This document shows, in pieces, positions 407 through 58,721 of a stretch of 64,000 nt of DNA. The notes under the pieces are model-generated. The model did no database searches. It was given only the letters and a program-made list of their open reading frames with translations, and was not told the DNA's origin. Position 1 is the first letter of the stretch; the number at the start of each line of letters is the position of its first letter. Where the stretch lies: assembly GCA_016215205.1 (NCBI GenBank), contig JACRKU010000013.1, forward strand, positions 29,016 through 93,015, in the 5' to 3' direction. A program made the position numbers and the translations under genes. Source of the DNA: Candidatus Yonathbacteria bacterium. Lineage in GTDB: Bacteria; Patescibacteriota; Minisyncoccia; Phycocordibacterales; UBA1550.

Positions 407-1324
407 ATGGCAAACAGGCACCTTTCACGAAGTATCGTAATGCAGGTTCTCTACGAATGGGATTTTCGCGGAGGTGCTCTTACCGACCTCGAGATAGAGC
501 AGGCTATCGCGCGAAATGCCGAAGAGTTTGCTCCCGGGGTTGGCGACATTTCGTTTATGAGGAAGCTCCTCTTGGGTATACTGGGCAAACGCGCCAAACT
601 CGACGATATTATTGAAAAAGCGGCGCCGGATTGGCCAATTGATAAAATTGCGCTCATCGACCGAAATATTCTTCGCATCGGACTTTACGAACTTCTTTTT
701 GAAGATCGCGCGCAAGTACCCGCAAAGGTTGCTATTAACGAAGCAATCGAACTTGCGAAAACATACGGCGGCGAGACAAGCGGTAAATTTATAAACGGCG
801 TGCTCGGCGCTGTGTACAAAGAGCTCGGCGAGCCGGGAAAAGACGAAACAAGCAAGAAGAAAAATTTGCAAAAAATTTCGCGTGTGCCGGTTGACCCCAA
901 AACCCTTCCGCTCGACAAGCTCGGCGGCGCGGTGGTGTACGCGCGTGACGGCGCGGATGTATATCTCGGTCTCGTGCATGATATTTTTGGGCACTGGACG
1001 CTCTCAAAGGGTCATTATAAAGACGGAGAGGACGATAAAACCGCGATTACGCGCATTGTGATGGAGGAGATTGGTCTTCCCATAACACTCGGAGAAGTCC
1101 TTGGCGAAAATGAATATGTGGCGTCACACCCAGAGAAAGGAAAGATGCGAAAACATGTGAGCTACTTTCTAGCAGAGGCGCCGTATCAAGAGATTAAGCT
1201 TATGAAAAAAGGCGGTCTTGATGATGCGCAGTGGTTCAAGCTCGCAGATATCATCGACCTTAATATGTATGACGATATGCTTCCGGTGATTACGAAGGCG
1301 GTGAATATATTACTCAAGAAATAA
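407..1324 (+). CDS. nusB: NusB antitermination factor fused to a C-terminal NUDIX hydrolase domain
   Basis: N-terminal ~140 aa NusB-like (SIVMQVLYEWDF..., ALIDRNILRIGLYELLF); C-terminal ~150 aa carries a Nudix box GHWTLSKGHYKDGEDDKTAITRIVMEEIGL (GX5EX7REUXEEXGU); single continuous ORF. Confidence 0.75.
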   Translation: MANRHLSRSIVMQVLYEWDFRGGALTDLEIEQAIARNAEEFAPGVGDISFMRKLLLGILGKRAKLDDIIEKAAPDWPIDKIALIDRNILRIGLYELLFEDRAQVPAKVAINEAIELAKTYGGETSGKFINGVLGAVYKELGEPGKDETSKKKNLQKISRVPVDPKTLPLDKLGGAVVYARDGADVYLGLVHDIFGHWTLSKGHYKDGEDDKTAITRIVMEEIGLPITLGEVLGENEYVASHPEKGKMRKHVSYFLAEAPYQEIKLMKKGGLDDAQWFKLADIIDLNMYDDMLPVITKAVNILLKK

Positions 1325-1334
1325 GAACAGTTTT

Positions 1335-2033
1335 ATGGAAAAGTTTAGAGCATTTGAAGAAAAGATTGGCGTGCATTTTAAAGACCGCGCGGTTCTCCGT
1401 GAGGCTTTTACGCATCGCTCATACATAAACGAAACACGCGAGCGCGGGCTTGACCACAACGAGCGTTTGGAGTTTCTGGGCGACGCGGTGGTGGAGCTTG
1501 TCGTAACAAATTTTCTATACAAAAAATATCCTCAAGCAAATGAAGGCGACCTCACAAGCTACCGCGCGGCGCTCGTAAATGCGGTGACGCTCGGCAATCT
1601 TGCTATTGATATGGGGATGGAGGAATATCTGCTCCTTTCAAAGGGCGAAGCGAAGGACAAGGGAACGAAAGCAAGGCAGATTATTCTTGCTAATGCATTT
1701 GAGGCGCTCGTCGGTGCTATTTATCTTGACCTCGGCTACGAAGCAGCGGATAAATTTCTGAAAGACTATCTCCTTGGAAAAACAGAAGAAATCGTGAAGA
1801 AGGAACTCTGGCGCGACGCAAAAAGCTTTTTTCAAGAAGAAGCGCAGGAGCATGTTGGAATCACTCCATCGTACCGCGTTATTAGTGAAGTTGGTCCCGA
1901 CCACGATAAGGATTTCAATGTGGGAGTGTATCTCAATGATGAACTCATTGGTATCGGAACAGGTAAGTCAAAGCAAGACGCCGAACAAGGCGCCGCCGCG
2001 GATGGGTTGAAAAAGAAAGGGTGGAATAAATAA
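1335..2033 (+). CDS. rnc: Ribonuclease III
   Basis: FTHRSYINE...ERLEFLGDAVVELVVTNFLY RNase III signature plus C-terminal dsRBD-like region. Confidence 0.9.
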   Translation: MEKFRAFEEKIGVHFKDRAVLREAFTHRSYINETRERGLDHNERLEFLGDAVVELVVTNFLYKKYPQANEGDLTSYRAALVNAVTLGNLAIDMGMEEYLLLSKGEAKDKGTKARQIILANAFEALVGAIYLDLGYEAADKFLKDYLLGKTEEIVKKELWRDAKSFFQEEAQEHVGITPSYRVISEVGPDHDKDFNVGVYLNDELIGIGTGKSKQDAEQGAAADGLKKKGWNK

Positions 2034-2508: not shown

Positions 2509-4758
2509 ATGCGCGTAAAAAGTTTGGAAATTTCTGGGTTTAAGTCCTTTGCAAAGAAGAGTGTTTTTGAGTTTGGGGCATCGATTTCGGCTATTGTGGG
2601 ACCGAATGGCTCTGGAAAGTCCAACGTCGCTGAAGCGCTTCGTTTCGTGCTCGGCGAGCAGTCGCTCAAGAGTATGCGTGGCAAGCGCACAGAAGACCTC
2701 ATCTTTAACGGCTCGAAAAGCGCCGAACGGCAAAATCGCGCGAAGGTGACGATTACCTTCGACAACAAAGACCGCACATTTCCCGTGGACTTTGACGAGG
2801 TTTCCATTGCGCGCGAAATCCACCGCGACGCCTCCAGTGAATATTTTTTGAATGGGTCTTCGGTACGCTTGAAAGATATTATTGAACTCCTTGCTTCGGT
2901 GCACATCGGCGCATCGGGACACCACATCATTTCGCAGGGCGAAGCGGATAGAATTTTGAATTCGTCGCCAAAGGACCGCCGCGCGATGATAGAAGACGCC
3001 CTCGGACTCAAGATTTACCACTGGAAAATAAACGAGAGTGAAAAGAAACTTTTGAAGACTGAGGAAAATATGCGTCAGTCGGAGTCTCTCCGCCGCGAGA
3101 TTGCGCCGCATATTAAATTTTTGAAAAAGCAGGTGGAGAAAGTCGAGCAGGCTAGAACATTGCGTGATGAACTCGCGCTTCTCTATGGCGATTATTTAAT
3201 TCGTGAGGAAACATACATCAAACACGCTCGTGAGAAGCTTCATGGAGAAAAAGGAAATCTTGAACGCGAACTTCATGAGGCAAATGAGGCGCTTCTCCGC
3301 GCGGATAGTTTGCGCGGCGTGCAGACGAAAGAAAGCGCCGAGGTTTCGGAGCTTGTGCGCGTGCGCTCGGAAATGGGCGCGGTGCGCCGCGAGCGAGATG
3401 ACCTTGGGAGGAAAATCGGTCGTCTCGAGGGAATGATAGAGTATGAAGAGCGCCGTTTGAATGCGCCGGAAGTTGCGCACGAGAAAACCGTTTCTGCAGA
3501 AGAGGCGGAAAATCTCGCGCAAAATCTGTATGACGAGCTCGGTCATGCAGAGGGAAGCGAGGACTATTTGTATATTAAAGGCGTAGTGAGCGCAACGCGT
3601 AACAAGCTCGGTAAATTCCTCGAACACATCAGGGGAAGTGGTGTCCAAAGAGGTCCCCGCGAGGCGGCAATAAAAGTGCTTGAGGATTTGCGCATTGAAC
3701 ATAAAAACCTTTTGGGCGCACAAGAGAACCTTGAGGATTTGATTTCAGGCTTTGAAGAAAAAATGCGCGAGCTTGAAGCAATACTTGAGACAAAGCGCAG
3801 AGATACCACCGATGCAGAACGCGCATCTTTTGAGTTTCGCGCAAAAAAACAAGAACTTACACTACGCATTGGCATAGTACGCGAACACATTGAAAATTTC
3901 ATGCGCGACGAAGTTGCATTTCGTGAAGAACTCCGCGAGGGGGGAATCCTCGTTGGTCGTTCCATTCTCGATTATGTGAATAATCATATTGATATCGAAC
4001 AAGCCCTTTCAGAGTCACGCGCCGAGCAAGAGAGTCGTCGCAAAAAAATTGAGCGCACTAAAATTCGTTTGGAGGATATTATGGGCGGAGGGTCAGGGGA
4101 GGATATTATGCGCGAGTATGAAGAAGCGGTGGAGCGTGATGTGTTTCTCTCGAAAGAACTCGAGGATTTGAAAACAAGCGCGGAGTCTCTCCGTGAATTG
4201 ATGCGCGGACTCGACGAGGAGCTTGGCGCGCAGTTCAAGGACGGTATTAAGAAAATCAATAAGCAGTTTGGAGAATTTTTTGCATTGATGTTTGGCGGTG
4301 GTACTGCATCGCTTGAAGTTGCGTTAGATAAAAAGAGGAAGCGTGGCGATACAGATATCGAAGGACTATTCGAAGGAGAGCCTGACGACGAAGAAGAAAC
4401 AGAAGAGGGAATTGATGTTGCGATTTCTTTGCCGCACAAAAAAATCCGCGGACTGCAAATGCTTTCTGGTGGCGAGCGCGCGCTCACATCTATCGCACTC
4501 ATCTTTGCGGTTTCGCAGGTGAATCCGCCGCCATTTCTTGTACTCGATGAAACTGATGCGGCTCTCGATGAAGCAAACTCTAAAAAGTATGGCGACATGG
4601 TCGCAACGCTCGCAAAATATTCCCAGCTCATCGTCATAACGCACAACCGCGAAACAATGTCCCGAGCAGGAATTATTTACGGCGTGACGATGGGCTCTGA
4701 CGCTATCTCAAAACTCCTCTCTATTAAGTTTGAGGAAGCGGAGCAGTTGGCGAAGTGA
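2509..4758 (+). CDS. smc: SMC-family chromosome condensation ATPase, short hinge-less form (749 aa)
   Basis: N-terminal head with FKSF, Walker A GPNGSGKSN, Q-loop region; long coiled-coil middle; C-terminal head with signature LSGGERALTSIALIFAV, Walker B FLVLDETDAALD, D-loop; no recognisable hinge (no G-rich hinge motif), length ~430 aa shorter than canonical SMC. Confidence 0.8.
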   Translation: MRVKSLEISGFKSFAKKSVFEFGASISAIVGPNGSGKSNVAEALRFVLGEQSLKSMRGKRTEDLIFNGSKSAERQNRAKVTITFDNKDRTFPVDFDEVSIAREIHRDASSEYFLNGSSVRLKDIIELLASVHIGASGHHIISQGEADRILNSSPKDRRAMIEDALGLKIYHWKINESEKKLLKTEENMRQSESLRREIAPHIKFLKKQVEKVEQARTLRDELALLYGDYLIREETYIKHAREKLHGEKGNLERELHEANEALLRADSLRGVQTKESAEVSELVRVRSEMGAVRRERDDLGRKIGRLEGMIEYEERRLNAPEVAHEKTVSAEEAENLAQNLYDELGHAEGSEDYLYIKGVVSATRNKLGKFLEHIRGSGVQRGPREAAIKVLEDLRIEHKNLLGAQENLEDLISGFEEKMRELEAILETKRRDTTDAERASFEFRAKKQELTLRIGIVREHIENFMRDEVAFREELREGGILVGRSILDYVNNHIDIEQALSESRAEQESRRKKIERTKIRLEDIMGGGSGEDIMREYEEAVERDVFLSKELEDLKTSAESLRELMRGLDEELGAQFKDGIKKINKQFGEFFALMFGGGTASLEVALDKKRKRGDTDIEGLFEGEPDDEEETEEGIDVAISLPHKKIRGLQMLSGGERALTSIALIFAVSQVNPPPFLVLDETDAALDEANSKKYGDMVATLAKYSQLIVITHNRETMSRAGIIYGVTMGSDAISKLLSIKFEEAEQLAK

Positions 4759-4831
4759 TTGACTAAGTTTCCATTTATGGTTTACTGTTTACTGGGTTGT
4801 ATCATTGATTAAACATCATAAGGAGCGCGTT

Positions 4832-5137
4832 ATGGCGAAAAAGCTTACTCTTGGAATTGTTTCTGCGAATGGTGAAATTGTACTGAAAGTAGAGAAGATG
4901 GAAGAGAAAGTTCGCCCTTGGCGAAGGATACCTATTCTTCAGGTGTTGCGAGTGCTTATTGGCACTATGACAGCCCTCTCTTTTGGTTCGAGGGTAATTC
5001 TTACGGACGCAAAAATTTGGTCTTCCGCTACGACCATGTGGATGCTCGCGTTCTCCTTTATGTTTTTGTTTTGGCTGGTTGAGTATATTATGCACAATTT
5101 ATTGCGCATAAAATTTGATTTGTATAAAACCGAGTGA
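4832..5137 (+). CDS. Small hypothetical membrane protein (101 aa)
   Basis: AAGGAG RBS before ATG 4832; hydrophobic segments (LIGTMTALSFG, WMLAFSFMFLFWLV); followed by terminator. Confidence 0.45.
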   Translation: MAKKLTLGIVSANGEIVLKVEKMEEKVRPWRRIPILQVLRVLIGTMTALSFGSRVILTDAKIWSSATTMWMLAFSFMFLFWLVEYIMHNLLRIKFDLYKTE

Positions 5138-7656: not shown

Positions 7657-7686
7657 TTGAAAATTTGTACCACTGCATGGTACAAT
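7657..7686 (+). promoter_or_regulatory. Putative promoter (-35 TTGAAA, -10 TACAAT)
   Basis: TTGAAA at 7657-7662, 18-nt spacer, TACAAT at 7681-7686, ATG at 7696. Confidence 0.35.
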
Positions 7687-7695
7687 ATAAACACG

Positions 7696-8892
7696 ATGGC
7701 ATTTTCTTTTTTTACTAATCGCGGAAATGATGAAACGCTGATCCTCCTTGTTGATATCGGGTCAGCGAGCGTGGGCGGCGCTCTTGTAAAGATTGAAAAA
7801 GGTCGCGCGCCGAATGTTCTTGCAACAGTTCGCAAAGACATCTCATTCCAAGAAGCGCTTTCTTCCGCTCGTTTCTTATCTGCAATGAATCACGCGCTCG
7901 ACCAAGTTTTAAAAACTATCCACCCAAAAACTACCGTCTTAGGTTCTCCCGCGCATATTTTTTGCACGCTTTCGTCCCCTTGGTTTATTTTAAAGACTCG
8001 CCGTTTATTGATTTCACGTCAAGAAGAATTTGAAGTAACCGAACGAGCTCTTGATGAATTTATAAGTGAAGACATCGCGCGTCTGAAAGAAGAACTCAAA
8101 GAAACGCTTCCGCCGAAGGATGTGAAAATCATCGAAAAGAAAATCATTCAGATGAAATTGAATGGATATGAGATCAAAAATCCATACGGCCAAAAAACGT
8201 CACAAATGGAGATTTTGATGACCATCGGGGTTTCGTCCGAAAAGGTTATTGAAAGCATCGAGCGTAAGCTCGGCAATGTTTTTCACGCAAAATCAGTCCA
8301 CTTCGGCGCATTTCCCATTGCCGCATTTAGCGCAGTAAGGGATATTTCCCCAACCGAAAAGAATTTCCTTTTTCTCGACATCACTGGCGAGGCGACCGAT
8401 GTATCACTGGTAAACAATGATCTTTTAATGGGGACGGTGACATTCCCCCATGGAAAAAATTTTTTTATTCGCGAAATTTCTGCGGAGATGCGCACTGTCC
8501 ACTTTGAGGCGGCAACGCTCTTTGCAATGTTTCTCCGTGATGAGTTGGATGACACAAAACGCGCCAGGATTGCGGCTATTATTGCGCGCGCTGAAGACGA
8601 ATGGCTTGCGCGCCTCGAAAAGTCGCTTGGTGCCCTTGCGAAGAACGGTGTATTGCCTCAGAAGGTATTTTTTACAACAGATGCTTTTATCGCTCCACTG
8701 TTTTCTTTGCTCCTCTCTCGCCGAGACCATATCGCAAAGATGGAGCACGGAACGAACGCATCGTTTGAGGCTCAGTATCTCGACCAGCTTATTGTTGAAA
8801 AGTTTGTTTCGTTCAATACGGGAGTTATTAGGGATCCGTTTATGGTCATTGAAGCGCTCCTAGCTTTCAAAATAGTCACGCAACACAAATAA
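7696..8892 (+). CDS. Actin-fold ATPase-like protein (FtsA/PilM/Ppx-GppA superfamily), hypothetical
   Basis: Two phosphate-binding-like motifs LLVDIGSASVGGALV and FLFLDITGEATDVSLV typical of ASKHA/actin-like ATPases; no family-specific motif recognised. Confidence 0.5.
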   Translation: MAFSFFTNRGNDETLILLVDIGSASVGGALVKIEKGRAPNVLATVRKDISFQEALSSARFLSAMNHALDQVLKTIHPKTTVLGSPAHIFCTLSSPWFILKTRRLLISRQEEFEVTERALDEFISEDIARLKEELKETLPPKDVKIIEKKIIQMKLNGYEIKNPYGQKTSQMEILMTIGVSSEKVIESIERKLGNVFHAKSVHFGAFPIAAFSAVRDISPTEKNFLFLDITGEATDVSLVNNDLLMGTVTFPHGKNFFIREISAEMRTVHFEAATLFAMFLRDELDDTKRARIAAIIARAEDEWLARLEKSLGALAKNGVLPQKVFFTTDAFIAPLFSLLLSRRDHIAKMEHGTNASFEAQYLDQLIVEKFVSFNTGVIRDPFMVIEALLAFKIVTQHK

Positions 8893-8893: not shown

Positions 8894-10240
8894 ATGAATG
8901 ACATTATCCGAAAACAAATGAAAGATGTGATTGTTCCTCATAACGAGGTTATTCGTCGAGTGCCAACCGTACCCGAACCGTACGCCGCGCCAAAGCCTTC
9001 AGAAGAAATGGGGCGCATCGAAAAAAATCCATTTTTCAAAAAGGAGAGAAAAAAAGATGACGAACCACCAAAAGGCAAAAGCGCGCGTTCCCACGCGCTT
9101 ACTTGGGCGTTTCTGGCAGTCGCACTTTTGGTCGCAGTTTTTGTTGTCGCAAACTATTTTTCATCGGCGACGGTAGAAATCACGCCTATCACGCGAAGTA
9201 TAAATCTAGACCGTGATTTTACAGCGGTTTCGTCCGACAAAGCGGTGGAAGGCGATCTCATTTTTCATTTTGTTGCAACTTCCACGGAAAAAATAAAAGA
9301 GGTCCCCGCAACGGTCGAAAAGAAGATTCAAAAAAAAGCGTCAGGGAAAGTAACAATTTTCAACTCCTATAATGGAGAAAGTCAGCGTCTCATCAAAAAC
9401 ACGCGCCTCGAGTCTCCCGGTCGCAAAACATATCGCATCGACCAGTCGGTGATTGTGCCAGGGATGAAGGTCGTCAATGGCAAAAATATGCCCGGCTCTG
9501 TTGAGGCGGTCGTCTATGCCGATGCTCCCGGTCCGGATTATAATATTGATAAACCTGCCGATTTTACAATCCCCGGGTTTAATGGTGACCCCCGATATAC
9601 GAAGTTTTACGCACGCTCAAAACCGGATTCTCCTATCACGGGCGGTTTTTCCGGAACCGTGAATATTCCCTCGGACGAAGCAATCCTACTTGCGCAAGAA
9701 GAATTGAAGCAAGAGCTCCCTAAAATCGCGATTGAAAAAGCGCGCGCGCAGATTCCCGACGGAATGTCGTTGTTTCCCGGAGGTGTGATAATAAAATTTG
9801 AAGATGTGCCGCAGGACATAACCTTAGGCACGCTGTCAAAGGTTGTCGTGCGCGCCACGGCATCGGTATTTTTCTTTGATACGACTGTTCTCACAGAGAA
9901 ACTTGCAGCCGCATTATTGTCCGAAGACAAAGGAAAAACATTCGTAGTCTCTAATATGTCCGCTCTCGCATTCTCATTCGTTGACCCCGTGAACAACGTA
10001 GTTCTCTCTGACCTCTCAAAGATAAGTTTTCATATCAAGGGGGACTTGGTGTTTGTGGGGCAGATTGATGCCACAAAAATCCGCGCGGAACTCGCGGGCA
10101 AAGAAAAAAAAGATTTTGGCAAACTTATCGTCGGAGAGAATAGTATCGGCAAGGCGGATGTTGTTATTCGTCCAATGTGGAAAACTGCCTTTCCTAAAGA
10201 CCCCACAAAGATTACAATAAAAATTGTTAGCGGGGAATAG
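8894..10240 (+). CDS. Bitopic membrane protein with ~360-aa extracytoplasmic domain, hypothetical
   Basis: Translationally coupled to upstream gene (TAA-T-ATG); charged N-terminus, single TM (LTWAFLAVALLVAVFVVANYF), large C-terminal domain without recognised motifs. Confidence 0.5.
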   Translation: MNDIIRKQMKDVIVPHNEVIRRVPTVPEPYAAPKPSEEMGRIEKNPFFKKERKKDDEPPKGKSARSHALTWAFLAVALLVAVFVVANYFSSATVEITPITRSINLDRDFTAVSSDKAVEGDLIFHFVATSTEKIKEVPATVEKKIQKKASGKVTIFNSYNGESQRLIKNTRLESPGRKTYRIDQSVIVPGMKVVNGKNMPGSVEAVVYADAPGPDYNIDKPADFTIPGFNGDPRYTKFYARSKPDSPITGGFSGTVNIPSDEAILLAQEELKQELPKIAIEKARAQIPDGMSLFPGGVIIKFEDVPQDITLGTLSKVVVRATASVFFFDTTVLTEKLAAALLSEDKGKTFVVSNMSALAFSFVDPVNNVVLSDLSKISFHIKGDLVFVGQIDATKIRAELAGKEKKDFGKLIVGENSIGKADVVIRPMWKTAFPKDPTKITIKIVSGE

Positions 10241-17287: not shown

Positions 17288-18337
17288 ATGGCAAAAGACT
17301 ACTACAAAACACTCGGTGTTGAAAAAAACGCCTCTCAAGACGAAATTAAAAAAGCGTTTCGTACTCTTGCGCACAAATATCATCCCGACAAGGGCGGTGA
17401 TGAGAAAAAGTTCAAAGAGGCAAGCGAAGCGTATCAAGTGCTTTCAGACGAAAAGAAACGCTCCGAATATGACACCTATGGTTCGGCGGGTCCGGGGCGA
17501 GGCAATGGCTTCGGGCAGGGCGGTTTTGACTCGTCTGGTTTCCAAGGGTTTGAAGGTGTGGACATAAACGACATCTTCGGAGATTTTTTTGGCGGTGGCC
17601 GCCGAGAACAGGTGCATCGCGGTCGCGACATTTCTGTTGACATTGAAATATCATTTTCGGAGGCTGTTTTTGGCGTGGAACACAAAGTTCGCATCACAAA
17701 AACCTCTTCTTGCGATACATGTCATGGCAGTGGCGCCAAACCGGGTACCAAAACAAAAGAGTGCGCAAAATGCAAGGGTAAGGGGCGCACACAGGAGTCC
17801 GTTAGGACAATTCTTGGTACATTTGCGCAAGAGCGCGAATGCAGTGCTTGTCACGGCTCCGGAAAAATTCCCGAAGAAAAATGCACCGCTTGCAAAGGCG
17901 CAGGTGTGGCGCGAAAAGAAGAGCAAATTACGATTCGCGTACCCGCAGGTATTCAAAATGGCGAGCAAGTGCGACTCACTGGCGCGGGTGAGGCAATACA
18001 GAACGGCAAGACAGGGGATTTGTATGTGCGTATTCATGTTGCTCCGCACAAAGTTTTCAGGCGCGAGGGTTACAACCTTGTGATGGCGCTCAGTGTGAAG
18101 CTCACCGACGCAATTCTCGGCGCCGAGTACCCCATACAGACTCTCGACGGAGAAATTAAATTAAAAATTCCGAGAGGTGTTTCGTCAGGCGAGGTTTTGC
18201 GCGTGCGCGAAAAAGGTGTACCCGTGGATAGCAAGCGCCGCGGCGATTTACTTATCAAGCTCGACATCAAAAATCCCGCAAAACTTTCCCGCACCGCCGA
18301 AAAACTCATCGAAGACCTTCGCAAAGAGGGGATTTAA
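17288..18337 (+). CDS. dnaJ: Chaperone DnaJ
   Basis: J-domain (DYYKTLGV...HPDK), G/F region, four CxxCxGxG zinc-finger repeats. Confidence 0.9.
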
Positions 18338-18536
18338 ATTTGCGAGATTATGTTTGCAAATTTCTTGAATACAATGCATAGTTTTTGCAGAGATGCTAAT
18401 GGCCAAATGCCGAGATTCCCTCGGCAACAAGAGCATCCTTTGTGAAGAGGAGTGCAAAATGAATATGTTTCTGCGCGTTGGCCCGGGTGATCCGGGCGAT
18501 CCGCCCTGCGACGGCGCTTAAACCACGCCCTCCATA

Positions 18537-18575
18537 ATCCCCCCGCTTCCTGTAAAGCGGGGGGATCTTTATGTT
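18537..18575 (+). terminator. Rho-independent terminator
   Basis: atccccccgctt / aagcggggggat 12-bp stem, loop cctgt, then CTTTATGTT. Confidence 0.6.
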
Positions 18576-18592
18576 AAGATGTCTAAGATTAC

Positions 18593-20035
18593 ATGAACTT
18601 TCTAAAAACAAAACGAGAAGAAACAAGAGAAGATATTTTTGGTATTAAAGTTGCAGACCCGTACCGCTGGCTTGAAGATGTAAAAAATCCAGAGGTTAAA
18701 GAGTGGATTGATGCACAAAATACTCACACCGATAATACTCTTCGAAATGAAACATTTGAGACTTTTTCTCGTGAGCTTGTGAAAAATTTTAAAGTCACTA
18801 CTTTTTCAAATCCTGTCCCAATTAAAGGGAGATACTTTTACTATGAGCGACAGCCAGATGAAGACCAAGATGCTTTTTATATGAAAATTGGTATAGACGG
18901 CGAACCCATAAAGCTTGTTGACCCGAACGGCATGAATTATGGTAATACAGTTTCTCTGGATTTTTGTTTTCCGTCTCGGACGGGAAAATATCTCGCATAC
19001 GGTCTTTCTCAAAGGGGGGGGGATGAAATGCCAACTATACATATTAAGGACACTGGCACAAACAAAGACCTTGGTTACAAAATCCCTCGTTGTAAAACTG
19101 CTAATGTAAGATGGCTCCCGGATGACTCAGGTTTTTTCTATAAACGAAACCACGCTGTTGGTGATGTTCCGCAAAACGAAGAGCATCTGCATACGAAAGT
19201 ATATTTTCATAAACTTGGCGATGATCCAATGCCGGATGACTATGCAGTCAAACAAGAATGGTATACATCAAAAGATAGCACACGCGTTCCAATGTTCATT
19301 TTTCATCGCAAGGATATCGCCCATGACGTGGCGCATCCTACCATTCTTTATGGGTATGGTGGTTTTGGAAGAGTTGAAAGCCCCAATTTTAAAAGAGGTT
19401 TTGTGCCATGGATAGAGCGTGGAGGTATTTTTGCAGTAGTGAATATCCGTGGTGGCGGTGAGTTTGGCGAGGTCTGGCACAATAGAGCTACTAAAGAAAA
19501 AAAGCAAAACAGTTTTGACGATTTTATTTCTGCAGGAGAATATTTAGTAGAACAAGGATATACTAGCGCGGAGCATCTAGGAATTTTTGGGGGAAGTAAT
19601 GGCGGACTCCTTGTGTCCGCAGTAGCAGTCCAAAGGCCAGATTTATTTAAGGCGGTGTGCTCCCGCGTACCACTCACTGATATGGCGCGTTTTCCGAAGT
19701 TCGGTATGGCTTTACGCTGGGTTCACGAATACGGTAATCCCGAAAATGAAGTGGATTTGAAAAATATATTAAAATGGAGTCCTTATCACAATGTAAAAGA
19801 GGGAACAGAATACCCAGCCTTTTTGTTTACCACTGCGGAGAAAGATGCGCGTGTCGACCCGCTTCATGCGCGCAAAATGGCCGCGATACTTCAGTCGGTG
19901 AACAAGAAAAACGAGATTTTTCTTTTTACGGAAAAAGAAGCGGGACATGGAAAAGGTAAACCTATTAAAAAAATTGTGGAAAGCCAAGCTCTAACGTTGG
20001 CATTCTTTGTTAAGAAATTAGGACTACGCATCTAG
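18593..20035 (+). CDS. S9-family serine peptidase (prolyl oligopeptidase-like) with strongly reduced beta-propeller
   Basis: N-terminal DPYRWLED POP hallmark; catalytic GGSNGGLL nucleophile elbow and downstream Asp/His region; only 480 aa vs ~700 typical, so propeller region ~130 aa; gene is AT-rich (~38-40% GC) relative to flanks. Confidence 0.75.
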   Translation: MNFLKTKREETREDIFGIKVADPYRWLEDVKNPEVKEWIDAQNTHTDNTLRNETFETFSRELVKNFKVTTFSNPVPIKGRYFYYERQPDEDQDAFYMKIGIDGEPIKLVDPNGMNYGNTVSLDFCFPSRTGKYLAYGLSQRGGDEMPTIHIKDTGTNKDLGYKIPRCKTANVRWLPDDSGFFYKRNHAVGDVPQNEEHLHTKVYFHKLGDDPMPDDYAVKQEWYTSKDSTRVPMFIFHRKDIAHDVAHPTILYGYGGFGRVESPNFKRGFVPWIERGGIFAVVNIRGGGEFGEVWHNRATKEKKQNSFDDFISAGEYLVEQGYTSAEHLGIFGGSNGGLLVSAVAVQRPDLFKAVCSRVPLTDMARFPKFGMALRWVHEYGNPENEVDLKNILKWSPYHNVKEGTEYPAFLFTTAEKDARVDPLHARKMAAILQSVNKKNEIFLFTEKEAGHGKGKPIKKIVESQALTLAFFVKKLGLRI

Positions 20036-20100
20036 ATATTCAAATGTCCTTGGCCTATTGGATTAGCAGGACAAGGGGTTTTTGAGTTATAATCATCTCA

Positions 20101-20625
20101 ATGAACCTTACGAATAACTATAAAGGCCACGCCGGTGTCGAGTATATTTTTGAATATTCTGATGCTGATTCTTTTGATGATTTGAATTTTAATAAGTGCA
20201 CTCAAGTATACGGAGTTTGTTTTTATGGCGATAAAATTGTAATAGGCTTTGGCGGCGCAAAGAAAAGCTGGGGACTAATCGGCGGGACAATTGAAAGAGG
20301 GGAAACGTTTGCGCAAACACTTGTGAGAGAAATACAGGAAGAATCAAATATGAAAGTGATGTCATTCTTGCCAATAGGATATCAGAAAGTTATAGATACA
20401 CGCGATGATAGTTTTTACTATCAGCTTCGCTATGTTTGCCTCGTACAACCCTACGGACCTTTTGTATCTGACCCAGCTCTCTCAGTAACAGAGATAAAAT
20501 TCATAGACCCCAAAGAATACAAGCAGTATTTTGACTGGGGGAGCATAGGTGACAGAATAATAGAAAGAGCATTAGAATTAAAGCATAAACTCAATTACGT
20601 GGGACTTGACAAAAAGCTGAAATAG
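20101..20625 (+). CDS. NUDIX hydrolase
   Basis: Nudix box GGTIERGETFAQTLVREIQEESN; AT-rich like the upstream peptidase gene. Confidence 0.75.
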   Translation: MNLTNNYKGHAGVEYIFEYSDADSFDDLNFNKCTQVYGVCFYGDKIVIGFGGAKKSWGLIGGTIERGETFAQTLVREIQEESNMKVMSFLPIGYQKVIDTRDDSFYYQLRYVCLVQPYGPFVSDPALSVTEIKFIDPKEYKQYFDWGSIGDRIIERALELKHKLNYVGLDKKLK

Positions 20626-20673
20626 TGTACACTTGATATAGTAATTTCACTCACCCAAAAGGAGCTCTTTGTT

Positions 20674-21087
20674 ATGAATATGGCGATTGTGAAGCAGTAT
20701 CTGAAGAATGCTTTTCGGGTTGTAGCCGTACTGACGATTGCCGCCCTCAGTATGATTATCGGCGACAAGTTTCAGCCGGTCACCTATTTAGGACTGACTG
20801 CGGATTATCTGCATCAGACGGAGGTGAAAAAGACGGTCGTTCACAAAACGTCGCCCGTAAAGGTTGCCGATAAGGTTACCAAAAAGGGAGAGACTCAGAC
20901 GTCGCAGAAAGACGTGCTCTGGGAACATGTCGGGAAGCTCAAGGGCGAATATGTGGTGAAAGACGGAGACACGCTGTGGAACATTGCGCGAAAGCACGAT
21001 GTTTCGCCGAAGAAACTCCTTCTCGCAAACAACATGACACGCGACACCAAATTGCGCCCCGGCCAGCTGATCACAATTCCAAACTGA
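20674..21087 (+). CDS. LysM domain membrane-anchored protein
   Basis: N-terminal TM (VVAVLTIAALSMIIG), C-terminal LysM (YVVKDGDTLWNIARKHDVSPKKLLLANNMTRDTKLRPGQLITIP). Confidence 0.7.
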   Translation: MNMAIVKQYLKNAFRVVAVLTIAALSMIIGDKFQPVTYLGLTADYLHQTEVKKTVVHKTSPVKVADKVTKKGETQTSQKDVLWEHVGKLKGEYVVKDGDTLWNIARKHDVSPKKLLLANNMTRDTKLRPGQLITIPN

Positions 21088-21107
21088 TACAAGCATATGT
21101 ATTTCTT

Positions 21108-21149
21108 ATACACGGAACCGTAAGTATGGTTCCGTGTATTTTCTTTTTG
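21108..21149 (+). terminator. Rho-independent terminator
   Basis: atacacggaacc / ggttccgtgtat perfect stem then TTTCTTTTTG. Confidence 0.8.
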
Positions 21150-21267
21150 TTAAACTCTGGCAATAGACGTTTGCGTTAATGTAGATTATATGTTACGATG
21201 CAGTCAGTTTTTAAGTGTTCTTTTCAATTGGCACATCGTGCCCGTAAACTAAGGGGAGAAAGCAGTA

Positions 21268-21432
21268 ATGAATGACAATATTGACAAACACATGGAAGTA
21301 GAGGTGGGAGCGTTTTGCCCCGTTGATTTTACTCCACTTATCGGAAAGCGAGACCACTGTGGGAAACCATGCACAAACATTGGTACCTCCTCCGACCAGG
21401 ACAAGAAAAATAAAGAAGACACAATAGATTAA
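21268..21432 (+). CDS. Small hypothetical protein (54 aa, 3 Cys), below ORF-track cutoff
   Basis: AAGGGGAG RBS 8 nt upstream of ATG; translates MNDNIDKHMEVEVGAFCPVDFTPLIGKRDHCGKPCTNIGTSSDQDKKNKEDTID; own terminator at 21458. Confidence 0.35.
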   Translation: MNDNIDKHMEVEVGAFCPVDFTPLIGKRDHCGKPCTNIGTSSDQDKKNKEDTID

Positions 21433-21457
21433 TATCCTGTGTTTTCATTCATTTCAG

Positions 21458-21492
21458 CCTCGCGCATTACGATGCGCGGGGTTTTTTTTCTT
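21458..21492 (+). terminator. Rho-independent terminator
   Basis: cctcgcgcat-tacg-atgcgcgggg hairpin followed by TTTTTTTTC. Confidence 0.7.
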
Positions 21493-21559
21493 TTCTCCTT
21501 ACTATGCGTGGCGCCCTTGCGCACTTTTACAATTTGTGGAAATAGATTAAAATAAGTTT

Positions 21560-21985
21560 ATGGTAGTCAATTTGATTTTTATATCGGCAATTTTATTTTT
21601 CAGCATCTTATTTGTTCTCGGTGTTCACAAAGACATCCGAGACCGCAAGCGAGTTGAGATGCTCATAAAGAATACGAAAGTGTCGAACGAGCGTTTGCGA
21701 ACAATGGAAGGACAGAAAATGGAGTTTGCATCTATTGCAGTGCATCAGTTACGCGCGCCACTCGCGGTTATAAAAGGGTATGCCTCAATGATTCTTGAGG
21801 GGACATTTGGCGCTATTTCCGACCCTGCGCGCGACGCGGTGGAGAAGCTTTATAAATCGAGCGAAAAAGTTGTTGCATCGGTCGAGGACCTGCTTGCTCT
21901 ATCGAGTAGCGATAGAGCGGACTTCGACCAAGGCGCGTGGATGACGGATGAGCCTCAGAATACAGCAAATCGCGAAGGTTCATAA
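21560..21985 (+). CDS. Membrane-anchored histidine-kinase DHp (HisKA) domain protein lacking a catalytic ATP-binding domain
   Basis: N-terminal TM; H-box AVHQLRAPLAVIKGY aligns to SHELRTPLtsIkGY with the phospho-acceptor His present; protein ends after second DHp helix (141 aa), no N/G1/G2 boxes. Confidence 0.65.
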   Translation: MVVNLIFISAILFFSILFVLGVHKDIRDRKRVEMLIKNTKVSNERLRTMEGQKMEFASIAVHQLRAPLAVIKGYASMILEGTFGAISDPARDAVEKLYKSSEKVVASVEDLLALSSSDRADFDQGAWMTDEPQNTANREGS

Positions 21986-22036
21986 GAAGAACCTATCTAA
22001 GTGAAATTTGAGCAAAAAGAATGATATACTTATTTC

Positions 22037-23272: not shown

Positions 23273-23393
23273 AAACCTTGTCAAATGGTGCTTTTTGGTG
23301 TATTGTGCGTCAGTGCTATCGTATTTTGGGAGATCGTCGTATGGTGGGAATGAAAAATGAAGCAGTTCATTTTTCATCCGGTTTCGTGAGAAA

Positions 23394-23509: not shown

Positions 23510-23515
23510 AGGCGA

Positions 23516-23559: not shown

Positions 23560-23600
23560 AATGAATATAAACCACCGATAGAAAGTGATAGGATTCTTTT

Positions 23601-44553: not shown

Positions 44554-45546
44554 ATGCCAATCGGAATGCCAAATCAAATGTATCAAAATTCAATCTTTTG
44601 GATTGAAATTGACAAGATTAAACCAAACCCTTTTCAACCGCGAAAGGAGTTTGACGAGCACAAGCTTCGCGACCTTGCGGATTCCATAAAACAGTACGGC
44701 ATTTTGCAGCCGCTTGTTGTTACGCGCCGCGAGATTGAAAAGTCCGATGGAGGTCTCGCTGTGGAGTATGAGCTTATCGCAGGAGAGCGCCGTTTACGCG
44801 CGGCGAAAATCGCCGGACTCTCGCAAGTTCCAGTACTTATTCGTATTGGAGAAGAGGGAAAAGAGGAAGAAGACAGGGTGAAGCTTGAGCTCGCCATCAT
44901 TGAAAACTTGCAACGCGAAGACCTAAACCCGGTGGACCGCGCAAAAGCATTTCAGCGTCTTGCCGATGATTTTGGTTTCAAGCATGTGCAAATCGCCGTA
45001 AAAGTAGGCAAGAGCCGCGAGTATGTTTCAAACACATTACGCTTGCTCGCGCTTCCGGAGGAAATGCAGACTGCGCTCGCGGAGCGCAAAATTACCGAGG
45101 GACACACGCGCCCGCTCCTTATGCTTTGCGACCGCAAAGAAGAACAGCTGACGCTCTACAAAGAAATAATTTTCAAAAAGTTGAATGTGCGCGAAGCGGA
45201 GCGTATCGCGCGCCGCATCGCGGTGGAAAAAGTTCGAAAGATAGGGTTAATTGATCCGGAAGTTGCAGAACTCGAACAGGAGCTCACGGAGCGGCTTGGC
45301 ACTCGGGTACAAATTGAAAAGCGAGAAACTGGCGGAAAAATTGTTATCGACTTTTTTTCAAACGATGATGTGCGCAACTTTTTGAAGCGGTTGCACGCGG
45401 AAATGCAGACGGCGCCGCCACTGGGCGAAACTGCCAAAGAAGCGTCAACACCCGCGGCAGCAGACGAGCTTGCAGAAGGCGGGGAAGATGTGATGGAAAA
45501 AGATCCGGACGAGGATATATACAACGTGAAAAATTTCTCGTTGTAA
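44554..45546 (+). CDS. parB: ParB/Spo0J-family partition protein (no adjacent parA)
   Basis: ParB N-domain GILQPLVV...YELIAGERRLRAAKIAGL, HTH, ...IIENLQREDLNPVDRAKAF...; long C-terminal extension. Confidence 0.85.
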   Translation: MPIGMPNQMYQNSIFWIEIDKIKPNPFQPRKEFDEHKLRDLADSIKQYGILQPLVVTRREIEKSDGGLAVEYELIAGERRLRAAKIAGLSQVPVLIRIGEEGKEEEDRVKLELAIIENLQREDLNPVDRAKAFQRLADDFGFKHVQIAVKVGKSREYVSNTLRLLALPEEMQTALAERKITEGHTRPLLMLCDRKEEQLTLYKEIIFKKLNVREAERIARRIAVEKVRKIGLIDPEVAELEQELTERLGTRVQIEKRETGGKIVIDFFSNDDVRNFLKRLHAEMQTAPPLGETAKEASTPAAADELAEGGEDVMEKDPDEDIYNVKNFSL

Positions 45547-57409: not shown

Positions 57410-58147
57410 ATGCAGTCAGACTACCAAACTAAAACGGATATTTTTGAGGGTCCACTGGAGCTCTTGCTTGACATGGTGGAAAAACGGAAACTTTTCATCA
57501 ACGAGATTTCGCTCGCGCAGGTGGCGGATGATTACATTGCGCACTTGAAACAGTTTGAAAAAATGCCAGTTGATTTTGTGTCCAACTTTCTTATCGTCGC
57601 GTCGACGCTTATTCTTATTAAATCAAAATCGCTTCTGCCGACACTCTCTCTTACGGAGGAAGAAACACAGGATATAGACGAGCTTGAACGACGCCTCAAA
57701 GAGTATCAAAAAATTCGCGAACTCTCTGTTCATGTGAAGCAAATGTTTGGTGCGCAAGTGTCATTTCCAAAAGGACAGTCGCGCGAGCGGGAGGCAGTGT
57801 TCATGCCGAGCGAGGAAATTACCGCACAAAGTATTTTTTCCGCGATACAGGATGTGATTTTACATTTTCCCAAAAAGATTACTTTGCCAAAAGTAGTGGT
57901 AAAAAAAGTTGTTTCGCTTGAGGAGATGATGGACAGGCTCACAAGGCGAATTACGGGTAGCTTAAAGATGAGTTTTCGTGATTTTGCCGGAGTAGGAAAG
58001 GAGGAGAAGGTAAACATCATTGTGAGCTTTCTCGCAATGCTTGAACTCGTGAAGCAGGGGATGATTGCAGTGACTCAAGGCGCGCACGGAGATGATATTG
58101 AAATTGAAACAAATACTCTTGAAACTCCAAATTACGGAGTAAAGTAG
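57410..58147 (+). CDS. scpA: Segregation and condensation protein A (kleisin)
   Basis: GPLELLLDMVEKRKLFINEISLAQVADDYIAHL ScpA N-terminal pattern. Confidence 0.85.
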   Translation: MQSDYQTKTDIFEGPLELLLDMVEKRKLFINEISLAQVADDYIAHLKQFEKMPVDFVSNFLIVASTLILIKSKSLLPTLSLTEEETQDIDELERRLKEYQKIRELSVHVKQMFGAQVSFPKGQSREREAVFMPSEEITAQSIFSAIQDVILHFPKKITLPKVVVKKVVSLEEMMDRLTRRITGSLKMSFRDFAGVGKEEKVNIIVSFLAMLELVKQGMIAVTQGAHGDDIEIETNTLETPNYGVK

Positions 58148-58169
58148 GGTGTGATATAATGGCAAATAT

Positions 58170-58721
58170 ATGGAACTTTCGCGACAAATCGAAGCACTGC
58201 TTTTCTTTAAAGGCGAACCTGTAACTGTGGGCTTTTTGGCAAAGACATTAAATATCTCGGAGGATGATGCGCGCGCCGGACTCGCAGAGCTAGAAAAGTC
58301 GCTCTCTGGTCACGGGATTATTTTGATGCAAAATGGTAACGAATACATGCTTGGCACCGTGCCGCAAATGGGCCCGACCATCGAAGCGCTTCTCAAAGAG
58401 GAGTTGGCTCGTGAGCTCGGCAAGGCAGGTCTCGAAACCCTTGCGATTGTGCTTTATCGCGGACCGATTTTACGAAGCGAGATCAACTACTTGCGTGGTG
58501 TAAACTCCAATTATATTTTGAGAAGCCTCCTTGTTCGCGGACTTATTGAAAAAGTTGACCAAGGCGGACGAAGCACAGTGTATCAGCCGACATTTGAACT
58601 CCTTTCTTATATGGGTGTGAGCAAAGTCGCGGATTTACCCGGATTTGATGAGACGCAAAAAGCGGTTGAAGAATTTAAACAAGAGTCGCAGAAAAACAAA
58701 AATGAACACGAAGAAGAATAG
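58170..58721 (+). CDS. scpB: Segregation and condensation protein B
   Basis: Tandem winged-helix ScpB pattern (IEALLFFKGEPVTVGFLAKTL...; LETLAIVLYRGPILRSEIN). Confidence 0.85.
   Translation: MELSRQIEALLFFKGEPVTVGFLAKTLNISEDDARAGLAELEKSLSGHGIILMQNGNEYMLGTVPQMGPTIEALLKEELARELGKAGLETLAIVLYRGPILRSEINYLRGVNSNYILRSLLVRGLIEKVDQGGRSTVYQPTFELLSYMGVSKVADLPGFDETQKAVEEFKQESQKNKNEHEEE

What the first reader, a model, noticed from the sequence alone, without database searches (positions are those of the whole stretch)
2509..4758. Canonical SMC head domains but only 749 aa and no hinge, with ScpA/ScpB encoded at 57410-58721
Seen in sequence: the N- and C-terminal head halves are unmistakably SMC (FKSF, Walker A, Q-loop; LSGGE signature, Walker B, D-loop). 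The intervening region is ~430 aa of predicted coiled coil with no G-rich hinge motif. Established: SMC dimerises through the hinge and binds the ScpAB kleisin at the heads. Inference: either a hinge-less SMC that folds back like RecN/Rad50 or dimerises only through heads and kleisin, or an internal deletion. The presence of intact scpA/scpB argues the complex is functional.
Basis: partly seen in the sequence, partly recalled or inferred. Interest (0 to 1): 0.55.

Follow-up and report, generated by a model that had tools for sequence, protein, structure and literature searches.

The report
Natural hinge-less, short-armed bacterial SMC
This Candidatus Yonathbacteria genome, like hundreds of related Parcubacteria/Paceibacteria species genomes, encodes a chromosome-organising SMC protein that keeps its ATPase heads and kleisin partners but has no hinge and arms about half the usual length, so it is a natural test of what the hinge is for.

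Summary
ORF 2509-4758 (+) is an intact 749-aa Smc with every ATPase motif and no hinge (no PF06470 hit even at E<=10). ScpA, ScpB and ParB lie in the same window.

It is not an assembly collapse. The 150 best-scoring 50%-identity cluster representatives are 586-782 aa, and nearly all align end to end. At least 551 species genomes carry it, and the 80 best loci share rpmF-nusB/Nudix-rnc-smc synteny.

Head, neck and the Smc "joint" are retained (B. subtilis-group Smc ~1-270 and ~922-1186). The remaining ~650 aa, distal arm plus hinge, are replaced by 196 aa. AF2 secondary structure plus covariation (antiparallel register i+j ~703 distal, ~742 proximal) put the fold-back point at aa 349-352. It is capped by a cysteine-free helical hairpin (aa 330-374) held on two facing loops.

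Some sister lineages (e.g. Vogelbacteria) carry CxxCGQ at that same apex. A profile of those tips has the Pyrococcus Rad50 zinc hook as its top PDB match (E 5e-6).

Inference: the tip, a hook or a helical cap, replaces the hinge as the dimerisation module. Dimerisation itself could not be tested here.

Verdict: a new variant of a known kind. I found no paper describing it.

The parts
2509..4758 (+). smc: 749-aa hinge-less Smc (stop codon included)
   Evidence: ORF. SMC_N aa 3-734, no hinge hit. TIGR02168 517 bits. A 100% identical protein exists in an NCBI Cand. Yonathbacteria MAG, named only 'AAA family ATPase'.
2509..3009 (+). N-terminal half of the ATPase head (aa 1-167), with Walker A at nt 2599-2622 and Q-loop at nt 2935-2949
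   Evidence: Motif positions. Invariant columns in alignment A1. AF2 beta/alpha head fold. Foldseek matches to Smc heads.
3010..3552 (+). N-terminal (ascending) strand of the coiled-coil arm, aa 168-348. Helices 168-269 and 277-317, loop 318-329, helix 330-348. Contains the conserved GRLEG motif (aa 304-308).
   Evidence: AF2 DSSP. Conservation. Antiparallel covariation with the C strand.
3496..3630 (+). Terminal 'cap' helical hairpin, aa 330-374 (helix 330-348, turn, helix 353-374). It is cysteine-free and is the proposed substitute for the hinge.
   Evidence: AF2 DSSP. Covarying pair 330-371. Hydrophobic fraction 0.33-0.34 against 0.22-0.26 in the rest of the distal arm. Conserved pattern D352 ... 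R364 ... F370.
3553..3564 (+). Arm apex (fold-back turn), aa 349-352, GSED
   Evidence: Distal register i+j ~699-705 puts the apex at about aa 351. AF2 places a turn there. The CxxC of hook-bearing relatives aligns to aa 353-356.
3460..3495 (+). Loop aa 318-329 on the N strand. It is indel-rich and faces loop 375-384.
   Evidence: AF2 pLDDT <50 for aa 319-328. Indels. Residue 325 covaries with 374, 376 and 377.
3631..3660 (+). Loop aa 375-384 on the C strand (RGSGVQRGPR). I first took it for the apex and later rejected that.
   Evidence: AF2 pLDDT <50 for aa 375-383. Variable with indels. Covariation places it opposite loop 318-329.
3565..4293 (+). C-terminal (descending) strand of the arm, aa 353-595
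   Evidence: AF2 helices 353-374, 385-482, 484-491, 496-501, 504-525 and 530-595. Covariation registers.
3925..4098 (+). C-side of the Smc joint, aa 473-530 (ELREGGILVGR ... KIRLEDIMGGGSG). It is homologous to about residues 922-990 of the 1186-aa B. velezensis Smc.
   Evidence: Family HMM against B. velezensis Smc. Broken into short helices, as in the published joint, where Bs 922-1011 splits into four helices (PMC5526789). Best Foldseek match is Smc head+joint 5XEI. About 40-residue register shift here.
4294..4755 (+). C-terminal half of the ATPase head (aa 596-749): signature nt 4462-4476, Walker B nt 4534-4551, D-loop nt 4552-4569, H-loop nt 4636-4647
57410..58147 (+). scpA (kleisin), 245 aa
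   Evidence: PF02616, E 8e-22, profile positions 1-230 of 232.
58170..58721 (+). scpB (kite subunit), 183 aa
   Evidence: PF04079, E 2.5e-38, profile positions 2-158 of 160.
44554..45546 (+). parB, 330 aa. It is the likely Smc loader by analogy with other bacteria.
   Evidence: ParB_N, HTH_ParB and ParB_C domains.
1335..2033 (+). rnc (RNase III), the upstream neighbour that marks the canonical rnc-smc locus
   Evidence: Pfam. rnc lies upstream of smc in 71 of 80 related loci and in B. velezensis.

Best explanation
This is the orthologous condensin Smc (Smc-ScpAB) of a Parcubacteria/Paceibacteria bacterium (Cand. Yonathbacteria), in a naturally minimised form.

Shown here. It keeps a complete ABC-ATPase head, the head-proximal neck and the Smc joint. 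It lacks the hinge domain and most of the distal arm. The remaining arm is an intramolecular antiparallel coiled coil. Its N strand is aa 168-348 and its C strand aa 353-595, about half the B. subtilis arm length. It folds back at aa 349-352. The arm ends in a 45-residue, cysteine-free helical hairpin (aa 330-374) attached through two facing loops (318-329 and 375-384). ScpA, ScpB and ParB are encoded in the same window.

Inferred. Two Smc chains are held together at this tip, most simply by two hairpins packing into a four-helix bundle, so that the tip does the job of the hinge. Heads then engage and disengage with ATP, and ScpA bridges them, as in canonical Smc-ScpAB. This would close a smaller ring or rod that is loaded via ParB and translocates on the roughly 0.6-1 Mb chromosome.

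The inference rests on three things: sister proteins carry a Rad50-type CxxC zinc hook at the homologous apex; published experiments show that the B. subtilis hinge can be replaced by a zinc hook; and arm and tip length are tightly conserved.
For: Smc identity:
- SMC_N E 6e-70.
- TIGR02168 517 bits against about 50 bits for RecN and Rad50 models.
- Best structural match is Smc head+joint 5XEI.
- The family HMM aligns aa 1-~270 and 473-749 to B. velezensis Smc 1-~270 and ~922-1186.
- rnc-smc synteny as in Bacillus.
- ScpA/ScpB and ParB are present.

Not an artefact:
- A 100% identical protein is deposited at NCBI, and more than 100 clusters at 53-90% identity are 738-765 aa when full length. 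They come from NCBI, ENA, JGI and Logan assemblies.
- The top 150 50%-identity representatives are 586-782 aa.
- At least 551 species genomes carry it.

Architecture:
- AF2 DSSP.
- MI-APC covariation on 444 sequences (Neff 265) gives antidiagonals i+j ~699-705 (z 3.4) and ~738-747. They hold 21 of the top 40 long-range pairs, against a hand estimate of ~2.4 expected by chance.
- The ~40-residue C-strand excess at the joint matches the published joint (PMC5526789). The B. subtilis register i+j=1171 is implied by the Burmann constructs (PMC5344682).

The tip as a dimerisation site:
- 45 of 382 collected family members have CxxCGQ at the apex, usually as their only two cysteines.
- A profile of these tips has P. 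furiosus Rad50 hook chains 6ZFF and 1L8D as its top two matches among 177,635 PDB sequences (E ~5e-6, CxxCG aligned). The next hits are above E 0.02.
- AF2 of hook-bearing P0171 shows two long helices joined by one 18-residue loop with CPVC at its centre.
[quoted passage not shown] The reverse swap, Rad50 carrying a MukB hinge, also works (PMC6969161).
- The cap hairpin is more hydrophobic than the rest of the arm.
- The tip segment length is tightly conserved, with an interquartile range of 125-133 aa.
Against: - No dimer could be modelled. Tip-tip contact in the cysteine-free type is therefore pure inference.
- The cap profile matches nothing specific in the PDB.
- The cap is only moderately conserved in sequence and is flanked by low-confidence loops.
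- The hydrophobicity excess is modest and is compatible with a monomeric hairpin.
- Absence of a second, hinge-bearing Smc or a separate hinge protein elsewhere in the genome was not tested. Only this 64-kb window and ±6-kb flanks of relatives were seen.
- The NJ tree does not resolve whether hook or cap is ancestral.
Confidence: 0.55

Rival explanations
1. The cysteine-free tip does not dimerise. The two Smc chains are joined only by ATP-engaged heads, the ScpA bridge and perhaps lateral zipping of the arms. The complex would then work as a DNA clamp at the heads and kleisin, without a topologically closed Smc compartment.
For: There is no cysteine and no recognisable dimerisation fold at the tip. 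Tip sequence is much less conserved than head and joint. The loops around the cap have low confidence. Intact ScpA and ScpB could supply bridging.
Against: Arm and tip lengths are tightly conserved over deep divergence, which is hard to explain for a free-ended arm. Sister lineages keep a dedicated intermolecular zinc hook at the same place, so tip joining seems to be under selection in this family. In B. subtilis a dimerisation module at the arm end is retained in all functional constructs described (PMC5344682).
Confidence: 0.27
2. The tip docks onto another protein that provides the hinge-like closure or DNA-binding function. That partner could be a separately encoded hinge, or ScpB, ParB or an unknown factor. 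The Smc would then be only one half of a split system.
For: CPR genomes hold many uncharacterised proteins, and two adjacent ORFs without Pfam hits lie 3 kb downstream. Whole genomes could not be screened.
Against: No conserved extra gene accompanies smc in 80 loci. The 110-aa ORF just downstream is not conserved. None of the 38 window ORFs scanned against Pfam shows a hinge domain. The hook-type relatives need no partner to dimerise.
Confidence: 0.08
3. It is not the condensin Smc but a repair-type SMC-like ATPase (RecN-, Rad50/SbcC- or defence-type) that merely resembles Smc in its heads.
For: Its length of about 750 aa and hinge-less fold-back arm resemble RecN and Rad50. Relatives have a Rad50-like hook. 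It scores below the TIGR02168 cutoff, and NCBI names it only 'AAA family ATPase'.
Against: The SMC_prok_B score of 517 bits is about ten times the RecN and Rad50 scores. The Smc-specific joint is retained. It sits in the canonical rnc-smc position in 71 of 80 genomes. ScpA and ScpB are present. No Mre11/SbcD-like neighbour appeared in the window ORFs scanned.
Confidence: 0.05
4. It is an assembly collapse, a recent deletion or a pseudogene.
For: None beyond the unusual length.
Against: The reading frame is intact and all catalytic motifs are invariant. Hundreds of independent assemblies from four sources give the same length. Covariation shows that the arm evolves under structural constraint.
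Confidence: 0.01

Closest known systems
Canonical bacterial Smc of Smc-ScpAB (e.g. B. subtilis / B. velezensis Smc, 1186 aa)
   Same: It has the same ATPase head with all motifs, the same neck and the same joint (aa 1-~270 and 473-749 align to B. velezensis 1-~270 and ~922-1186). It occupies the same rnc-smc locus. It has the same partners ScpA, ScpB and ParB. Its coiled coil is intramolecular and antiparallel, with a C-strand excess at the joint.
   Different: It has no hinge domain. About 650 aa (distal arm plus hinge) are replaced by 196 aa. The N strand is 181 aa instead of about 331, so the arm is about half as long. The arm ends in a 45-aa helical hairpin on two loops. The score falls below the TIGR02168 equivalog cutoff.
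Engineered Mini-Smc and Smc(Zh) of B. subtilis (Burmann et al. 2017, PMC5344682)
   Same: These are shortened arms and/or a hinge replaced by an unrelated dimerisation module, with head and joint kept. The hook-bearing sister proteins are in effect natural Smc(Zh).
   Different: Those are laboratory constructs, whereas this is the wild-type gene of a large clade. The window protein has neither hinge nor hook. By my estimate its arm is about 180-200 aa on their scale, between their natural length modes of 163 and 238 aa. I did not apply their measurement method.
Rad50/SbcC zinc hook (P. furiosus Rad50, PDB 1L8D and 6ZFF)
   Same: The arm is a fold-back coiled coil with the dimerisation element at the apex. 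Sister Smc proteins have CxxCG at the apex with a significant profile match (E 5e-6).
   Different: The window protein has no cysteine and cannot form a zinc hook. Its head is Smc-type, not Rad50-type. Its partner is the kleisin ScpA, not an Mre11/SbcD nuclease.
RecN
   Same: It is a hinge-less SMC-family ATPase with a short fold-back coiled coil. From my own knowledge of the RecN structure, which was not tested here, RecN dimerises through the coiled-coil tips.
   Different: TIGR00634 scores 54 bits against a cutoff of 408. RecN has no joint, no ScpAB partners and a different locus.

Membership tests
Smc (Smc-ScpAB condensin) | ABC-type ATPase head with Walker A, Q-loop, LSGGE signature, Walker B, D-loop and H-loop | tested here: met
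   All motifs are present and invariant across the family. SMC_N E 6e-70.
Smc (Smc-ScpAB condensin) | Scores above the curated cutoff of the equivalog model TIGR02168 (SMC_prok_B) | tested here: not met
   It scores 517.1 bits against a cutoff of 567.35. The shortfall fits the missing hinge and distal arm. It is by far the best model: the next SMC model scores 286 bits, and RecN and Rad50 about 50.
Smc (Smc-ScpAB condensin) | Hinge dimerisation domain (PF06470) | tested here: not met
   There is no hit at E<=10. None of the listed homologues carries PF06470. A profile of the central region finds no hinge structure in the PDB.
Smc (Smc-ScpAB condensin) | Long intramolecular antiparallel coiled-coil arm | tested here: met
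   AF2 helices span aa 168-595. Covariation shows antiparallel antidiagonals. The arm is about half the canonical length.
Smc (Smc-ScpAB condensin) | Head-proximal Smc joint (continuous N helix; C strand split into several short helices) | tested here: met
   The C strand at aa 473-530 is split into short helices. It aligns to residues ~922-990 of the 1186-aa B. velezensis Smc. The best Foldseek hit is head+joint 5XEI. There is a ~40-residue register shift. Published definition in PMC5526789.
Smc (Smc-ScpAB condensin) | Kleisin ScpA and kite ScpB encoded in the genome | tested here: met
   PF02616 E 8e-22 and PF04079 E 2.5e-38, both with full-length matches.
Smc (Smc-ScpAB condensin) | Orthologous genomic position (rnc-smc) | tested here: met
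   rnc is directly upstream here, in 71 of 80 related loci and in B. velezensis.
Smc (Smc-ScpAB condensin) | Constitutive homodimer joined at the end of the arm | not testable with these tools
Rad50/SbcC | CxxC zinc hook at the coiled-coil apex | tested here: not met
   The window protein has zero cysteines. The motif is present in sister lineages only.
Rad50/SbcC | Rad50-type head (equivalog models) and an Mre11/SbcD partner | tested here: not met
   Rad50 models score 46-50 bits against cutoffs of 700-1000. No Mre11/SbcD domain appeared among the window ORFs scanned. The whole genome was not examined.
RecN | Match to the TIGR00634 equivalog | tested here: not met
   It scores 54 bits against a cutoff of 407.85.

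The most novel reading that the evidence does not exclude
In a whole class of ultra-small bacteria, the universal SMC hinge has been replaced in nature by unrelated tip modules. Some lineages use a Rad50-type zinc hook. Most, including this genome, use a previously undescribed cysteine-free helical 'cap' that forms a four-helix-bundle mini-hinge on flexible loops. This would show that hinge-specific activities, such as DNA binding and gate opening, are dispensable for a working Smc-ScpAB motor. It would also provide a 749-aa minimal SMC complex with roughly 25-nm arms for mechanistic and structural study.
Probability: 0.45. Interest if true: 0.78.

Novelty: new variant of a known kind. Interest (0 to 1): 0.66.

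Why it matters
Models of how SMC motors organise DNA differ in the role they give the hinge and the long arms. The proposed roles include a DNA-binding site, an entry or exit gate, a swinging element and a passive clasp.

In B. subtilis the hinge could be swapped for a zinc hook, and arms could be shortened only in discrete steps (PMC5344682). That was engineering in a single species.

Here evolution appears to have done the same experiment across at least 551 species genomes. Head, joint, ScpAB and ParB are kept. The hinge is gone and the arm is halved. Two alternative tip solutions coexist in sister lineages.

If the tip dimerises, it would argue that the hinge's only indispensable job in Smc-ScpAB is to hold two arms together. 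If it does not, a bacterial condensin can work without a closed Smc ring, which would be more surprising still. Either outcome is directly testable with small, tractable proteins.

There is also a practical point. Annotation pipelines call these genes 'AAA family ATPase' because they fall below the SMC model cutoff. Surveys may therefore wrongly score Parcubacteria as lacking Smc.

Tried and rejected
1. Apex at loop 375-384. I first assumed a symmetric hairpin (N strand 207 aa, C strand 211 aa). I rejected this for three reasons. Covariation gives i+j ~703, not ~763. The CxxC of hook-type relatives aligns to aa 353-356. Canonical Smc has the same C-strand excess at the joint.

2. AF2 dimer by a tandem tip-linker-tip alignment (A2).

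I used DSSP plus covariation instead.

4. Profile of the cysteine-free tip (A4) against PDB sequences returned only generic or designed coiled coils (best E 0.006). hhalign of A4 against the hook tips A3 aligned only the C-side coiled coil.

5. A conserved partner gene next to smc was not found. The 110-aa ORF at 4805-5137 has no Pfam hit and no homologue in 80 related loci.

6. A canonical parS (TGTTTCACGTGAAACA, up to 3 mismatches) is absent from the window.

7. Taxon names for hook-type clusters: the listing of cluster members gave none. Names come only (Vogelbacteria, Paceibacterota).

8. Direction of evolution (hook to cap, or cap to hook). In the NJ tree rooted on four canonical Smc, hook clades are interspersed with cap clades and no intermediates appear. 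The question is unresolved. A first tree attempt timed out.

9. The nearest hinge-bearing relatives could not be reached, because the best-hit lists are saturated by the short family.

10. Literature. Eight searches combining SMC, Smc-ScpAB, hinge, hingeless or zinc hook with CPR, Patescibacteria, Parcubacteria or related terms found no description of this family.
Full report
**1.

The ORF at 2509-4758 (+) encodes 749 aa with an ATG start and no interruption.
- FKSF, aa 11-14
- Walker A, aa 31-38
- Q-loop, aa 143-147
- LSGGE signature, aa 652-656
- Walker B, aa 676-681
- D-loop, aa 682-687
- H-loop, aa 710-713

Pfam SMC_N covers aa 3-734 (E 6e-70). No hinge model (PF06470) appears even at E<=10. 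The best NCBIfam model is the bacterial Smc equivalog TIGR02168 at 517 bits, just under its 567-bit cutoff. RecN and Rad50 models reach only about 50 bits.

ScpA (57410-58147) and ScpB (58170-58721) are intact. ParB lies at 44554-45546. The protein has no cysteine.

**2. It is not an artefact; it is the standard Smc of a large clade**

- An identical protein is deposited from a Candidatus Yonathbacteria MAG, named only "AAA family ATPase".
- More than 100 clusters at 53-90% identity are 738-765 aa when full length. They come from NCBI, ENA, JGI and Logan assemblies, and none is annotated with a hinge domain.
- In an exhaustive search of 1.84 billion representatives, the 150 best 50%-identity clusters are 586-782 aa. 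Nearly all align end to end, down to 42% identity.
The 80 best are Parcubacteria/Paceibacteria: Yonath-, Nomura-, Lloyd-, Wolfe-, Taylor-, Kaiser-, Vogel- and Campbellbacteria. Some "Saccharibacteria" titles in third-party assemblies look like placeholder names.
- In these loci the order rpmF - nusB/Nudix - rnc - smc ... rnr(-) - rpsP is conserved. rnc is present in 71 of the 80 loci, and its coordinates lie upstream of smc on the same strand in nearly all of them. rnc-smc is also the arrangement in Bacillus.

The gene is therefore the orthologue of canonical smc, not a paralogue.

**3. What was kept and what was lost**

I recovered four canonical Smc proteins (1183-1194 aa) from chromosome fragments filed as plasmids. 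I then scored them with an HMM of the short family.
- Window aa 1-~270 correspond to B. velezensis Smc 1-~270.
- Window aa 473-749 correspond to ~922-1186.
- The conserved ELREGGILVGR (aa 474-484) aligns to "LKDEEVKLGR" near residue 930.
- KIRLEDIMGGGSGED aligns to "KLSIEELGTVNLGS" near residue 980.

These segments are the Smc "joint". Diebold-Durand et al. describe it as an N helix (188-253) that stays continuous and a C part (922-1011) that splits into four helices (PMC5526789).

AF2 (pLDDT 76) predicts exactly this pattern: helices ending at 482, then 484-491, 496-501, 504-525 and 530-595. The best PDB match of the model is the Pyrococcus Smc head+joint, 5XEI.

So head, neck and joint are retained. 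The roughly 650 residues of distal arm plus hinge are replaced by 196 residues (aa 277-472).

**4. Where the arm folds back**

AF2's secondary structure shows this sequence of elements:
- helices 168-269 and 277-317
- loop 318-329
- helix 330-348
- turn 349-352
- helix 353-374
- loop 375-384
- helix 385-482

I first took loop 375-384 for the apex.

The averages along antidiagonals peak at i+j = 699-705 (z 3.4) for the distal arm and at 738-747 for the head-proximal part. Of the 40 strongest long-range pairs, 21 fall on these two antidiagonals, against a hand estimate of about 2.4 expected by chance. Examples are 241-468, 226-478, 266-444, 325-377, 330-371, 174-569 and 195-544.

Four conclusions follow:
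- The apex is at about aa 351, which is the AF2 turn GSED (349-352).
- Loops 318-329 and 375-384 face each other.
- Together they set off a terminal hairpin, aa 330-348 / 353-374.
- The ~40-residue register shift sits at the joint, where N residues 223-236 covary with both C 467-485 and C 504-510.

The same kind of C-strand excess exists in B. subtilis. There the Burmann constructs imply i+j = 1171 (PMC5344682).

The N strand is 181 aa, against about 331 aa in Bacillus. That makes the arm roughly half the published 47-49 nm.

**5. Sister proteins carry a Rad50-type zinc hook at the same apex**

While aligning the shorter family members, I found CxxC motifs at the tip. A search seeded with one of them (P0171, Cand. 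Vogelbacteria) raised the count to 45 of 382 collected sequences. The consensus is C-P/x-Y/x-C-G-Q, and in most of them these are the only two cysteines in the protein.

In the unbiased representative set the fraction is about 4% (6 of the 150 listed; 5 of the 145 that passed the length filter).

A profile of these tips (A3) was searched against all 177,635 PDB sequences. Its two top hits are the P. furiosus Rad50 zinc-hook fragments 6ZFF and 1L8D (E ~5e-6), with CxxCG aligned to CPVCG. Everything else is above E 0.02.

AF2 of P0171 (pLDDT 78) shows helices 273-325 and 344-449 joined by a single 18-residue loop, with CPVC (331-334) at its centre. One hook-type gene examined in context also has rnr downstream.

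These proteins are in effect natural versions of the engineered Smc(Zh). In the window protein the hook position aligns to aa 353-356 (DYLYIKGVV), which coincides with the apex found independently by covariation.

**6. The window protein's own tip**

It has no cysteine. In place of the hook loop it has about 34 extra residues (median tip segment 130 aa against 96 aa). These form the cap hairpin.

The cap has a conserved pattern: AE-S-S-E-D, then hydrophobic-x-x-[ILV]-[KR], then R364, then F370-[LI]. Its hydrophobic fraction is higher than in the rest of the distal arm, 0.33-0.34 against 0.22-0.26.

A profile of the cap finds nothing specific in the PDB.

Two such hairpins could pack into a four-helix bundle hanging on flexible loops, a "mini-hinge". 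This is my inference and is not shown.

**7. Mechanism proposed**

Shown: the parts list (Smc with head, neck, joint, short arm and cap; ScpA; ScpB; ParB) and the fold-back architecture.

Established elsewhere:
- ScpA bridges the two heads, and ATP drives head engagement.
- The B. subtilis hinge can be replaced by a zinc hook.
- Arm length is functionally tuned (PMC5344682).
- Hook and hinge are interchangeable in the other direction too (PMC6969161).

Inferred: the cap, or the hook in sister lineages, holds two arms together so that a smaller Smc-ScpAB ring or rod forms and works like the canonical one.

The main rival is that the cap does not dimerise and the complex is joined only at the heads and kleisin. 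The conserved arm and tip length and the hook in relatives argue against it, but no result excludes it. A speculative rationale for short arms is the very small cell and genome size of these bacteria. I have no evidence for that.

**8. Comparison and novelty**

It works like Smc-ScpAB and is its orthologue. It fails two formal membership criteria: the hinge domain and the equivalog cutoff. It is not Rad50/SbcC or RecN.

The nearest precedents are laboratory constructs (Mini-Smc and Smc(Zh)). Eight full-text searches found no paper describing hinge-less or hook-bearing Smc in CPR/Patescibacteria. The two key engineering papers do not mention natural examples. The library does not cover most subscription journals, so prior mention cannot be excluded.

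I rate it a new variant of a known kind, with interest 0.66.

**9. Limits**

- There is no dimer model and no model coordinates.
- Whole genomes were not screened for a second SMC or a stand-alone hinge.
- The node where the hinge was lost, and the polarity of hook versus cap, are unresolved (NJ only).
- The hook's zinc binding is inferred from sequence.

Noticed in passing
related proteins P0171, P0129, P0174, P0176, P0198, P0199, P0269-P0303 etc.; locus L022:2654-4789; L085:8001-10142: A subset of the same hinge-less Smc family (e.g. Cand. Vogelbacteria) carries CxxCGQ at the arm apex, usually as its only two cysteines. The motif has a significant profile match to the Pyrococcus Rad50 zinc hook. 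These look like natural Smc-zinc-hook proteins.
   Followed up: yes
window 4327-4410 (Smc aa 607-634): A basic-then-acidic insertion (DKKRKRGDTDIEGLFEGEPDDEEETEEG) sits in the C-terminal head half. It is absent from B. velezensis Smc, is variable in length across the family and has very low AF2 confidence. Its function is unknown.
   Followed up: partly
window 407-1324 (+): A NusB domain is fused to a C-terminal NUDIX hydrolase domain in one 305-aa ORF. Full-length homologues (about 290-330 aa) lie upstream of rnc-smc in most of the 80 related loci (68 have a hit).
   Followed up: partly
window 2509-4758; protein P0001: NCBI annotation calls this protein, and most relatives, 'AAA family ATPase' or 'hypothetical protein'. 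The likely reason is that it falls below the TIGR02168 cutoff (517 against 567 bits). Gene-content surveys could wrongly score these bacteria as lacking Smc.
   Followed up: partly
window 7657-8892 (+) and 8894-10240 (+): Two adjacent large ORFs (411 and 448 aa) have no Pfam match at E<=0.001. The second has an N-terminal hydrophobic segment.
   Followed up: no
window 44554-45546 (+): A complete ParB (N, HTH and C domains) is present, but no canonical parS (TGTTTCACGTGAAACA, up to 3 mismatches) occurs anywhere in the 64-kb window.
   Followed up: partly
window ~18000-24000: G+C drops to 0.42-0.44, against about 0.47 elsewhere. The stretch includes an S9 prolyl oligopeptidase (18593-20035) and a histidine kinase (22037-23272). 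It may be acquired DNA.
   Followed up: no
window 4805-5137 (+): A 110-aa ORF immediately downstream of smc has no Pfam hit and no homologue in the 80 related loci. It is probably lineage-specific or not a gene.
   Followed up: yes
window 58645-59676 (+): The longest ORF of the D-Ala-D-Ala carboxypeptidase (Peptidase_S11) starts at a TTG that overlaps the last ~77 nt of scpB. The true start is probably further downstream.
   Followed up: no
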